In this document: piece after piece, positions 33,601-36,600 of the stretch
Layout: each line of letters opens with the position of its first letter
How positions within the stretch are numbered: the first letter of the stretch is position 1
Origin: Escherichia coli
GTDB taxonomy: Bacteria; Pseudomonadota; Gammaproteobacteria; Enterobacterales; Enterobacteriaceae
DNA: 64,000 nt
Strand: one strand, 5' to 3'
Assembly: GCF_048403405.1 (NCBI RefSeq)
Contig: NZ_CP183129.1
Position numbers: made by a program

Positions 33601-36600
33601 CGCCGGAATCGGCAGAATAAACAAAATACTGACCGTCATACTGCTCAGCCCTAATACCGCGCCCATCAGCACGCCGGAGCAGGCTTCAAAGGCGGCAATC
33701 CCGGCCAGACCGCCAATCAGCATCAGCAAATAACAGTTAAAACCGCTGTTACCGAAAAGCGTTTTATAACTGGTAAGCAGGCGTGTGCGCGGTGTGTCGA
33801 CCGGACGTGTTTCCGGCATCCAGCGGGCCATACTGAAGGTCACACCGGCGCAAAGTACCAACAAAAAGAGATAACAGGCGCGCCAGTTCCACATCGTATC
33901 CAGCAGACCACCGATTAGCGGTGCGAGCAACGGACTGACAAGAATCCCCATGTTTAACAAGCTGTTAGCGTGGCGCAACTGTGTCCGTTCATATAAATCA
34001 CGCGGCAAAGTACGCGCCATTACACCGCCAACGCCGGTGCCCATGCCCTGCATCGCGCTGGCGGCAATCAATACCGTCAAACTGGAGGTCGTGACCGCGA
34101 CCAGCGTTGCCAGCATAAAAATGGACATTCCGACGAGGATCACCGGTCGGCGACCGACACGGTCGGAAATTGGGCCATAAAACAGCTGTGAGACACCGTA
34201 AGTCAGCAGATAAGCGCCCATTACGCTCTGCACCGCCCCTTCACGGACGTTGAGATCGCGCGCCATATCGGCAATAGCTGGAATATAAATGGTTTGCGCC
34301 ATCTGACCGACGGCCACGAGTAATACCAACATCAATAACAAATTGACGTTTCTATGCCTTTTCATTATCACGGATGCTTTTATAAAAATAATTAGAATAA
34401 GTCACTACGCATTCCCATAAATGCGGGAGAGGAATCTATCACATTGATAAATGTTAGCCAGATATACGCCAGGAATGGGGAATTGTTTAGCGGCAGAATA
34501 TGTAAACAAAAGCGGCAATAAATGTTGCCGGGAGGGATGGTAGGGCGGATAAGATGCATCAGCATCGCATCCGACACCAACCCGCACGCTAAATATGAAA
34601 GGGGAGCGGTTACCCGCTCCCCTTTGGTGCGACTTGAATCTGAATTACTTCAGGTATTTCAGAACAGCATCAAGCAGTTGCAGTGCTGCAACAATGAGTT
34701 TGAGGATAAGAATGGCGATATCCACCAGGCTCATACGCGTCTCCTGTGGTTCAGGAGCACTGCCAGCTGACGTACCTTTCCGCTGCCTGTTGCCAGCTGT
34801 TGTGCACGCGGTATCTCAAGGAGAAACGTTGTGCTCGTTGACATAACACAGTGTGCTCACGCGGGGTTAAGGCGCTGACGGCACCACCCGTTTCAGCCAG
34901 GACTTAGTGCGCCGGGTAACGATGCGGCCCCCGCATAACACATTGCGTACAGTGATATTATAGAAGTTTACTGTATAAATAAACAGTAATGTTTGGACAA
35001 AACGCAAACTGTGATCGATACTCAACTATGCACTAATTACGTCAAAATTCGTGCCGAAATTGCGCGTTCTGCGCGGAACACGTATACTTTCTGTGTTGAC
35101 ATAATACAGTGTGCTTTGCGGTTACCAGCCGCGGGCGGCTGACGAAACCTCGCTCCGGCGGGGTTTTTTGTTGTGCACAGAAAACCCCCAGCTAGGCTGG
35201 GGGTTCCGGAAAGCTTTCAGCTTTAAGCCAGTTATTAAAACCCCTTTTGATTTGTTAAAACACCTTGCGGTCTGGCAACTGCAAGTGTCAAACAAGAAAT
35301 CGAAAGGGGGTCCCAATGGGGAACGAAAAGAGCTTAGCGCACACCCGATGGAACTGTAAATATCACATAGTTTTTGCGCCAAAATACCGAAGACAGGTGT
35401 TCTACAGAGAGAAGCGTAGAGCAATAGGCAGTATTTTGAGAAAGCTGTGTGAGTGGAAAAGTGTACGGATTCTGGAAGCTGAATGCTGTGCAGATCATAT
35501 CCATATGCTTGTGGAGATCCCGCCCAAAATGAGCGTATCCGGCTTTATGGGATATCTGAAAGGGAAAAGCAGTCTGATGCTTTACGAGCAGTTTGGTGAT
35601 TTGAAATTCAAATACAGGAACAGGGAGTTCTGGTGCAGAGGGTACTACGTCGATACGGTGGGTAAGAACACGGCGAAGATACAGGATTACATAAAGCACC
35701 AGCTTGAAGAGGATAAAATGGGAGAGCAGTTATCGATTCCCTATCCGGGCAGCCCGTTTACGGGCCGTAAGTAACGAAGTTGGATGCAAATGTCAGATCG
35801 TGTGCGCCTGTTAGGGCGCGGCTGGTAAGAGAGCCTTATAGGCGCATTTGAAAAACCTCCGGCTATGCCGGAGGATATTTATTACCTGCAGTACAGTACA
35901 AAACGTGATCAACCCCTCAATTTTCCCTTGCTGAAAAATTTTCCATTGTCTCCCCTGTAAAGCTGTGCTTGTATAAATATTGTTAAACACAAAACCAACA
36001 AGGTCCCCAATGACTACTTCCATGCTCAACGCAAAACTACTACCAACTGCGCCATCCGCCGCAGTGGTCGTCGTGCGTGTGGTGGTGGTCGTCGGCAATG
36101 CGCCGTAGGGACTGGAACAACACACGATTCCAAAACCCCGCCGGCGCAAACCGGGCGGGGTTTTTCGTTTAAGCACCTCCCGGAAAGTCGGCCCAGAAGA
36201 AAAGGACTGGAGCATGGCAAGTTCGGGCACAACATCGACGCGTAAGCGCTTTACCGGCGCAGAATTTATCGTTCATTTCCTGGAACAGCAGGGCATTAAG
36301 ATTGTGACGGGCATTCCGGGCGGTTCTATCCTGCCTGTTTACGATGCCTTAAGCCAAAGCACGCAAATCCGCCATATTCTGGCTCGCCATGAACAGGGCG
36401 CGGGGTTTATCGCTCAGGGAATGGCGCGCACCGACGGTAAACCGGCGGTCTGTATGGCCTGTAGCGGACCGGGGGCGACTAACCTGGTGACCGCCATTGC
36501 CGATGCGCGGCTGGACTCCATCCCGCTGATTTGCATCACTGGTCAGGTTCCCGCCTCAATGATCGGCACTGACGCCTTCCAGGAAGTCGACACCTACGGC

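What the first reader, a model, noticed from the sequence alone, without database searches (positions are those of the whole stretch)
34829..35115. Twenty-nucleotide direct repeat linking IstR-1 to its target site in tisAB mRNA
ttgacataaCacagtgtgct (34829-34848) and ttgacataaTacagtgtgct (35096-35115) are direct repeats on the plus strand. The second lies at the 5' end of the plus-strand IstR-1 sRNA; the first lies inside the minus-strand tisAB transcript, so IstR-1 is complementary to tisAB mRNA across about 20 nt. Together with the LexA box (34969-34988) and the 29-codon tisB ORF, the whole SOS toxin/antitoxin-RNA module is intact. This is known biology reconstructed from sequence.
Basis: partly seen in the sequence, partly recalled or inferred. 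Interest (0 to 1): 0.4.

Follow-up and report, generated by a model that had tools for sequence, protein, structure and literature searches.

The report
IstR-1 antitoxin pairing site on tisB
The repeat is the already well-studied 21-base match that lets the small RNA IstR-1 bind and silence the SOS-induced toxin mRNA tisB in E. coli; it is real, intact and conserved, but ordinary and not new.

Summary
The repeat is real. With the preceding G it is 21 nt (34837-34857 and 35095-35115), 20/21 identical. The one difference gives a U·G wobble, so IstR-1 nt 1-21 pair without interruption with tisAB mRNA (-33.5 kcal/mol). Chance expectation is about 8e-4 per 56 kb.

The window is an E. coli chromosome: emrD-tisB-LexA box-istR-[IS200]-ivbL-ilvB. 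Rfam istR scores 147.5 bits, Pfam TisB_toxin 37.6 bits, and the published promoter hexamers, LexA box and tisB SD are all present.

In 57 other TisB loci from more than 12 enterobacterial genera the repeat is always present. A 22-bp helix is 99% paired, three pairs carry compensatory changes, and one-sided changes are G·U in 50 cells against 9 mismatched. The helix starts at the predicted IstR-1 +1.

The repeat is already published: 21 nt complementarity, a "22-nt istR repeat", standby-site competition and RNase III cleavage. An apparent 70-nt extended complementarity did not survive shuffle controls.

The parts
34837..34857 (-). IstR-1 target / ribosome standby segment in the tisAB mRNA 5' UTR (repeat copy 1); contains the tisA AUG (34844-34842)
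   Evidence: conserved in 57 other loci; literature PMC4147584, PMC6690012, PMC2577331
35095..35115 (+). 5' antisense segment of IstR-1 (repeat copy 2), nt 1-21 of the sRNA
   Evidence: first 12 nt predicted single-stranded in IstR-1
35095..35169 (+). IstR-1 sRNA (75 nt if +1 = G35095; the transferred K-12 RefSeq annotation starts at 35097, 73 nt)
   Evidence: Rfam RF01400; K-12 annotation transferred via alignment A1; terminator scan
35030..35169 (+). IstR-2 (140 nt, SOS-inducible longer form); the antisense core is predicted to be more sequestered (P unpaired 0.29 against 0.65 in IstR-1)
   Evidence: PMC11264685 states it does not repress tisB
35060..35088 (+). IstR-1 promoter TTGCGC-17 nt-TATACT
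   Evidence: sequence; hexamers as in PMC11264685 Table 1; -10 in fixed register in 52/57 loci
34994..35022 (+). IstR-2 promoter TGGACA-17 nt-GATACT
   Evidence: PMC11264685 Table 1
34969..34988 (.). LexA box TACTGTATAAATAAACAGTA between the divergent tisAB and istR-2 promoters
   Evidence: CTGT-N8-ACAG present in 54/57 loci, 110-116 nt upstream of the target
34957..34962 (-). tisAB -10 hexamer TATAAT
   Evidence: sequence; PMC11264685 Table 1
34592..34950 (-). tisAB primary transcript (about 359 nt; ends approximate to +/-3 nt), from the predicted +1 to just past the terminator hairpin 34598-34625
   Evidence: inferred from -10 position and terminator (I3, 20); 359-nt length from PMC2577331
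34731..34844 (-). tisA ORF (37 codons); start codon not conserved outside Escherichia, Salmonella and some Citrobacter
   Evidence: no Pfam family
34645..34734 (-). tisB toxin ORF, 29 aa, N2S variant (MSLVDIAILILKLIVAALQLLDAVLKYLK)
   Evidence: RefSeq annotation WP_000060506.1; Pfam PF13939 37.6 bits; N2S is the dominant E. coli variant (PMC11264685)
34740..34745 (-). tisB Shine-Dalgarno AGGAGA
   Evidence: sequence; PMC11264685 Table 1
35144..35169 (+). istR intrinsic terminator (10-bp stem plus T6)

Best explanation
This is the tisB/istR-1 type I toxin-antitoxin locus of E. coli. The two repeat copies are the two halves of an intermolecular RNA helix. IstR-1 is made constitutively from the + strand, and its first 21 nt (35095-35115) are the antisense element. 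tisAB mRNA is made from the - strand under LexA control and carries the complementary 21 nt (34857 to 34837) about 100 nt upstream of the tisB ribosome binding site. Shown here: the complementarity, its statistical significance, its conservation with compensatory changes across Enterobacteriaceae, and the integrity of all sequence parts. Taken from published experiments, not tested here: the primary mRNA is inert; 5' processing to +42 exposes this segment as a ribosome standby site; IstR-1 pairing blocks 30S/S1 loading; and RNase III cuts the duplex to give the inert +106 mRNA. Toxin is therefore made only when SOS induction lets tisAB mRNA outnumber IstR-1.
For: The repeat is exact and non-random. 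The duplex has 21 contiguous pairs, 20 WC plus 1 U·G, at -33.5 kcal/mol. Rfam istR scores 147.5 bits against a gathering score of 45, and Pfam TisB_toxin is above cutoff. The locus is 100% identical to E. coli loci annotated tisB and shows K-12 synteny with annotated IstR-1/IstR-2. Published promoter hexamers, LexA box and SD are all present (against PMC11264685). Comparative test, ascertained on TisB coding sequence only: 57 of 58 loci analysed (window included) have the repeat 246-258 nt apart, and the 58th has it 2155 nt apart. The 22-pair helix is 99.0% paired against 21-49% when slid. Three pairs have changes on both sides (17 cells), reached by 0/500 shuffles. One-sided changes give G·U in 50 cells and non-pairs in 9, and the columns just outside the helix are mostly mismatched. 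The helix edge coincides with the +1 predicted from the conserved TATACT. Literature: 21 nt complementarity (PMC4147584); the '22-nt istR repeat' (PMC2577331); standby site +85 to +111 and the +42/+106 species (PMC6690012).
Against: Nothing substantive. The exact IstR-1 5' end is uncertain by 2 nt: the RefSeq K-12 annotation transfers to 35097 rather than 35095, which would shorten the helix to 19-20 bp. Thermodynamic folding shows only a modest rise in target accessibility from the +1 to the +42 form (mean P unpaired 0.31 to 0.42), so the processing switch is not reproduced convincingly in silico. Covariation between two direct repeats could in part reflect gene conversion rather than selection on RNA pairing.
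Confidence: 0.97

Rival explanations
1. The two copies are a DNA-level feature: a duplicated protein-binding site, or a duplication remnant kept alike by gene conversion. Under this view the RNA complementarity is incidental.
For: The core contains a small palindrome (CACAGTGTG) of the kind dimeric DNA-binding proteins use. Concerted change of both copies is also what gene conversion would produce.
Against: One-sided substitutions are strongly biased to those that keep a G·U pair (50 cells) over those that break pairing (9 cells), an asymmetry that has meaning only at the RNA level. Similarity stops exactly at the predicted IstR-1 +1 and after 22 nt. The flanks show no homology beyond chance (P = 0.125). 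Published experiments show IstR-1-dependent inhibition and RNase III cleavage (PMC6690012, PMC4147584).
Confidence: 0.02
2. The longer, SOS-induced IstR-2 (35030-35169), which also contains copy 2, is the relevant antitoxin rather than IstR-1.
For: IstR-2 contains the same 21 nt, and in K-12 one further matching base upstream (22-nt repeat, PMC2577331). Cofold predicts that it can pair too.
Against: In IstR-2 the antisense core is predicted to be mostly base-paired internally (mean P unpaired 0.29 against 0.65 in IstR-1). In this window the extra upstream base does not match (C34836 against T35094). Across genera the positions upstream of IstR-1 +1 are mostly mismatched. The literature states that IstR-2 does not repress tisB translation (PMC11264685).
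Confidence: 0.02
3. The repeat is a chance similarity in an AT-rich intergenic region.
For: None beyond its short length.
Against: Expectation is about 8e-4 per 56 kb, with 0 pairs in 40 simulations and 0 matches in 100 shuffles. The repeat is conserved in 57 other loci across more than 12 genera.
Confidence: 0.001

Closest known systems
tisB/istR-1 type I toxin-antitoxin system of E. coli K-12 (Vogel 2004; Darfeuille 2007; Romilly 2019, PMC6690012)
   Same: Same locus, same synteny, and about 97% nucleotide identity over the aligned region (mean column identity, end gaps included). Both repeat copies are identical to K-12, as are the LexA box, the promoter hexamers named in PMC11264685, the SD and the terminators.
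   Different: TisB carries N2S, the variant found in 85% of E. coli (PMC11264685). The base just upstream of IstR-1 +1 no longer matches its target-side counterpart, so the repeat is 21 nt here against 22 nt in K-12. An IS200C copy is inserted 3 nt after the istR terminator.
Other divergent, non-overlapping type I TA pairs of E. coli: dinQ/agrB, zorO/orzO, shoB/ohsC
   Same: A divergently transcribed sRNA with a short (about 15-31 nt) stretch complementary to the long 5' UTR of a small hydrophobic toxin mRNA. 5' processing activates the mRNA, and RNase III is involved in some of them (PMC5668327, PMC4147584).
   Different: Different toxins and sRNAs. AgrB acts by inducing SD sequestration rather than by standby competition (PMC5668327). 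None of these pairs was analysed here.
hok/sok
   Same: Antisense RNA antitoxin, mRNA processing required for activity, and RNase III cleavage of the duplex (PMC5668327).
   Different: Sok is cis-encoded and overlapping, activation is by 3' processing, and control acts through the mok leader ORF. tisB/istR-1 is trans-like, with only 21-22 nt of complementarity, and acts at a distant standby site.

Membership tests
tisB/istR-1 type I toxin-antitoxin locus | 29-aa hydrophobic TisB toxin ORF | tested here: met
   ORF 34645-34734 (-); Pfam PF13939 TisB_toxin 37.6 bits, cutoff 25; RefSeq annotation 'toxin TisB' on a 100% identical locus
tisB/istR-1 type I toxin-antitoxin locus | Divergently encoded istR sRNA gene with two stem-loops and an intrinsic terminator | tested here: met
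   Rfam RF01400 full-length hit 35040-35169 (+), 147.5 bits against gathering 45, E = 4.9e-32; terminator scan
tisB/istR-1 type I toxin-antitoxin locus | About 21 nt of complementarity between the IstR-1 5' end and the tisAB 5' UTR, about 100 nt upstream of the tisB RBS | tested here: met
   21 contiguous pairs (20 WC + 1 U·G), -33.5 kcal/mol; target 103-123 nt upstream of the tisB AUG; covariation in 39 distinct sequence pairs
tisB/istR-1 type I toxin-antitoxin locus | LexA operator at the tisAB promoter (SOS control) | tested here: met
   TACTGTATAAATAAACAGTA at 34969-34988, identical to K-12; CTGT-N8-ACAG conserved in 54/57 loci. This is a sequence test only; LexA binding itself was not tested.
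tisB/istR-1 type I toxin-antitoxin locus | Own constitutive promoter for IstR-1 placing +1 at the start of the antisense segment | tested here: met
   TTGCGC-17-TATACT at 35060-35088 (PMC11264685); TATACT at -12 to -7 from the helix-start G in 52/57 loci. Promoter activity was not tested.
tisB/istR-1 type I toxin-antitoxin locus | Chromosomal context emrD - tisB - istR - ivbL/ilvB | tested here: met
   (with an IS200C inserted between istR and ivbL in this strain)
tisB/istR-1 type I toxin-antitoxin locus | 5' processing (+1 to +42) exposes the target as a single-stranded standby site | tested here: inconclusive
   The MFE of the +1 form pairs the 5' end with the target, but mean P unpaired of the target rises only from 0.31 to 0.42 in the +42 form. 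The experimental basis is in PMC6690012.
tisB/istR-1 type I toxin-antitoxin locus | IstR-1 blocks 30S/S1 standby binding, and RNase III cleaves the duplex to the +106 species | not testable with these tools
   Published for K-12 (PMC6690012, PMC4147584). With +1 near 34950, +106 falls at about 34845, inside the 34857-34837 helix (inference).

The most novel reading that the evidence does not exclude
Across Enterobacteriaceae the helix is held at 22 bp from IstR-1 nt 1, about the size expected for an RNase III substrate (from general knowledge, not tested here). Its strength drifts by lineage: C-to-U changes on the IstR side give 0-3 G·U wobbles, including a central U·G in Escherichia, Klebsiella and Raoultella, and a few lineages carry an A·C mismatch. 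The target side is almost invariant. One compensatory pair erases the tisA AUG in 41 of 57 loci. This could mean that antitoxin strength, and so the SOS threshold for TisB-dependent persistence, is tuned lineage by lineage, and that tisA is not a gene at all.
Probability: 0.2. Interest if true: 0.3.

Novelty: already known. Interest (0 to 1): 0.1.

Why it matters
It matters only as a sanity check: the scan recovered from raw sequence a textbook RNA antitoxin-target pair that controls SOS-induced persister formation, and the module is intact in this strain. The cross-genus pair table adds modest comparative support to a mechanism already established by experiment. That table shows a 22-bp helix with three compensated pairs, a G·U bias, a non-conserved tisA start codon and a near-invariant target side.

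Tried and rejected
1. Extended complementarity or an origin by a longer duplication. RNAduplex of whole IstR-1 against tisAB gave -78 kcal/mol over about 70 nt. Flank-only controls were null. Local alignment of the flanks scored 16 against 13.1 +/- 2.2 in shuffles (P = 0.125). The IstR-1 body against the leader gave -41.9 against -45.1 +/- 4.4 kcal/mol for shuffled bodies (z = +0.7). Columns outside the helix are mismatched across species. Rejected.

It was replaced by a degenerate codon pattern built on the charged positions D5, K12, Q19, D22 and K26.

3. Mapping +42 and +106 exactly from oligonucleotide tables failed, because no supplement is held for PMC6690012. The tisAB +1 is therefore given to +/-3 nt, from the -10 hexamer and the published 359-nt length (PMC2577331).

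4. In silico reproduction of the +1/+42 accessibility switch and of IstR-1/IstR-2 discrimination by cofolding was weak and not decisive.

5. Chance and DNA-level explanations were considered and rejected; see the rival explanations.

Full report
OBSERVATION. Copy 2 (TTGACATAATACAGTGTGCT) is at 35096-35115 as stated. The G before each copy also matches, so the repeat is 21 nt (34837-34857 / 35095-35115), 20/21 identical, with 258 nt start to start (family D2).

The repeat is not chance. No other site in 64 kb matches with up to 3 mismatches, and no match arose in any of 100 dinucleotide shuffles. Forty first-order Markov simulations of 56 kb gave no 20/21 direct pair within 1 kb, against an analytic expectation of 8e-4. 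The only other such pairs in the window belong to a 291-nt tandem array in a large adhesin gene.

WHAT IT IS. The 601 nt around the finding are 100% identical to several complete E. coli chromosomes. There the minus-strand ORF is annotated tisB, and the neighbours are emrD, ysdE, an IS200C tnpA, ivbL and ilvB. Aligned to K-12 MG1655, the locus shows about 97% column identity and both repeat copies are identical. Transferring the K-12 ncRNA annotation gives IstR-1 at 35097-35169 and IstR-2 at 35030-35169 (+).

- Rfam's istR model (RF01400) matches 35040-35169 (+) end to end at 147.5 bits (gathering score 45, E = 4.9e-32).
- The 29-aa product (MSLVDIAILILKLIVAALQLLDAVLKYLK) hits Pfam TisB_toxin above cutoff. 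It is the N2S variant, reported as the dominant form in E. coli (PMC11264685).
- All published control elements are present by sequence: IstR-1 promoter TTGCGC-17-TATACT (35060-35088), IstR-2 promoter TGGACA-17-GATACT (34994-35022), tisAB -10 TATAAT (34962 to 34957, minus), tisB SD AGGAGA (34745 to 34740, minus), and terminators on both transcripts (hexamers from PMC11264685 Table 1).
- The TATACT hexamer predicts +1 at G35095, the first base of the 21-nt repeat. The RefSeq K-12 annotation would put it 2 nt later.

HOW THE TWO COPIES RELATE. The copies are direct repeats and the two genes are divergent. IstR-1 therefore carries the sequence of copy 2, and tisAB mRNA carries the reverse complement of copy 1. 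The result is 21 contiguous base pairs. The single DNA difference (C34847 / T35105) gives a U·G wobble at IstR-1 nt 11, not a mismatch, and the duplex energy is -33.5 kcal/mol. A further terminal U·G is possible, giving 22 pairs.

In IstR-1 the first 12 nt are predicted single-stranded (mean P unpaired of the core 0.65). In IstR-2 the core is largely sequestered (0.29). This agrees with the published statement that IstR-2 does not repress tisB (PMC11264685).

The target lies 103-123 nt upstream of the tisB AUG and includes the tisA AUG. With +1 near 34950 (7 nt after TATAAT), the distance to just past the terminator hairpin matches the published 359-nt transcript length (PMC2577331). On that basis the target is about +94 to +114. 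It overlaps the published standby region (+85 to +111) and contains the +106 RNase III product end (PMC6690012).

COMPARATIVE TEST. I searched one genome per species (GTDB collection) with a degenerate codon pattern built only on TisB's charged and hydrophobic positions, so ascertainment was independent of the repeat. It returned 66 loci, all encoding 29-aa TisB homologues. They come from Escherichia, Salmonella, Citrobacter, Enterobacter, Klebsiella, Raoultella, Leclercia, Lelliottia, Trabulsiella, Siccibacter, Superficieibacter, Phytobacter and others. Fifty-seven of these had at least 450 nt of upstream sequence and were analysed together with the window.

- A blind search for the longest pairing-compatible direct repeat found the same element in 57 of the 58 regions, with runs of 15-28 nt against 11.9 on average (maximum 15) in shuffles, and spacing of 246-258 nt.
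- The 58th (K. michiganensis, L060) has both copies 2155 nt apart.
- In register, 22 columns starting at IstR-1 nt 1 are 99.0% paired over 39 distinct sequence pairs, against 21-49% when the partner is slid by 1-3 columns.
- Three pairs carry changes on both sides: A-U to G-C at IstR nt 7 in 15 against 21 sequences, plus two single cases. Together these are 17 cells, a level reached by 0 of 500 shuffles.
- One-sided changes produce G·U in 50 cells and non-pairs in only 9. The two columns on either side of the helix are mostly mismatched.
- The variation is nearly all C/U on the IstR side. The target side is almost invariant, as expected if it is also constrained as a standby site and as a partner of the 5' inhibitory structure.
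- The IstR-1 -10 hexamer is in fixed register with the helix start in 52/57 loci. A CTGT-N8-ACAG LexA box lies 110-116 nt upstream of the target in 54/57.

MECHANISM. Shown here: complementarity, non-randomness, conservation with compensation, and integrity of every sequence element. Taken from published experiments on K-12 and not tested here:
- LexA represses tisAB.
- The +1 mRNA is translationally inert.
- Removal of 41 nt exposes the segment as a standby site for 30S/S1.
- IstR-1 pairing blocks standby, and RNase III cuts the duplex to the inert +106 form (PMC6690012, PMC4147584, PMC5668327).

My folding of the +1, +42 and +106 forms is only weakly informative. The +1 MFE pairs the 5' end with the target, but target accessibility rises only from 0.31 to 0.42.

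COMPARISON WITH WHAT IS KNOWN. This is not merely like tisB/istR-1; it is that locus. [quoted passage not shown] There are three differences from K-12. TisB is N2S. The base upstream of IstR-1 +1 no longer matches, so the repeat is 21 nt rather than 22. An IS200C copy is inserted 3 nt after the istR terminator.

REJECTED LEADS. A whole-molecule duplex prediction suggested 70 nt of complementarity (-78 kcal/mol), which raised the idea of a longer ancestral duplication. Flank-only alignment (P = 0.125) and duplex energy against shuffles (z = +0.7) show nothing beyond the core. Chance, a DNA-level repeat, and IstR-2 as the effector are dealt with under the rival explanations.

VERDICT. Novelty: already known. 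Interest: 0.1.

Noticed in passing
window 35173-35883: A 711-bp IS200C copy (tnpA 35316-35774, +; Rfam STnc490 hit 35183-35306, 143 bits) is inserted 3 nt after the IstR terminator T-run, in the same orientation as istR. It is absent from K-12. The istR/IS200 junction is found in about 98 of 5426 complete E. coli genomes. Whether it affects IstR 3' end formation, or is read into from the SOS-inducible IstR-2 promoter, is unknown.
   Followed up: partly
window 52927-62601 (array 56380-60447): A 3224-aa ORF carries 14 tandem 291-nt (97-aa) units at 85% identity. The matching gene in strain TUM14771 is annotated as inverse autotransporter adhesin IatC, next to eilA. The window's copy is 582 nt longer, which equals two repeat units.
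   Followed up: partly
window 34842-34844 (tisA AUG) and loci L003-L068: The covarying helix position (IstR-1 nt 7 A/G, target U/C) is the U of the tisA start codon. tisA starts with ATG in 16 of 57 loci, ACG in 40 and ACA in 1, and the downstream frames and lengths differ. So tisA is not a conserved coding gene, while the RNA helix is kept.
   Followed up: yes
window 34934-34945: A third, partial copy of the repeat core (CATAACACATTG, 11/12 to 34842-34853) lies at about +6 to +17 of tisAB mRNA, inside the 41 nt removed by processing. In the +1 MFE fold this 5' end pairs with the IstR-1 target region, consistent with the published inhibitory 5' structure.
   Followed up: partly
window 34906-34925 (-): The 20-nt segment GCATCGTTACCCGGCGCACT, reported as antisense to uxaA mRNA (PMC2577331), is present and spans the predicted +42 processing site (about 34909). 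The 16-nt dinD-antisense segment CAACTGCTTGATGCTG lies inside tisB.
   Followed up: no
L060 (Klebsiella michiganensis DSM 25444), about 4684 and 6839: Both repeat copies are present but 2155 nt apart instead of about 250. This implies an insertion of about 1.9 kb between istR and the LexA box/tisAB promoter. Its content was not examined.
   Followed up: no
loci L003-L068: There are two leader-length classes. The IstR-1 target starts 88-94 nt upstream of the tisB AUG in Enterobacter, Leclercia, Lelliottia, Trabulsiella and many Citrobacter. It starts 122-157 nt upstream in Escherichia, Salmonella, Klebsiella, Raoultella and some Citrobacter. The 'about 100 nt' standby distance is therefore not fixed.
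   Followed up: partly
window 34530-34580: A REP-type palindromic element lies downstream of the tisAB terminator (weak Rfam naRNA4 hit 34544-34576, E = 0.98). This matches the single REP reported between tisAB and emrD (PMC2577331). The small ORF ysdE is annotated at about 34447-34521 (+).
   Followed up: no
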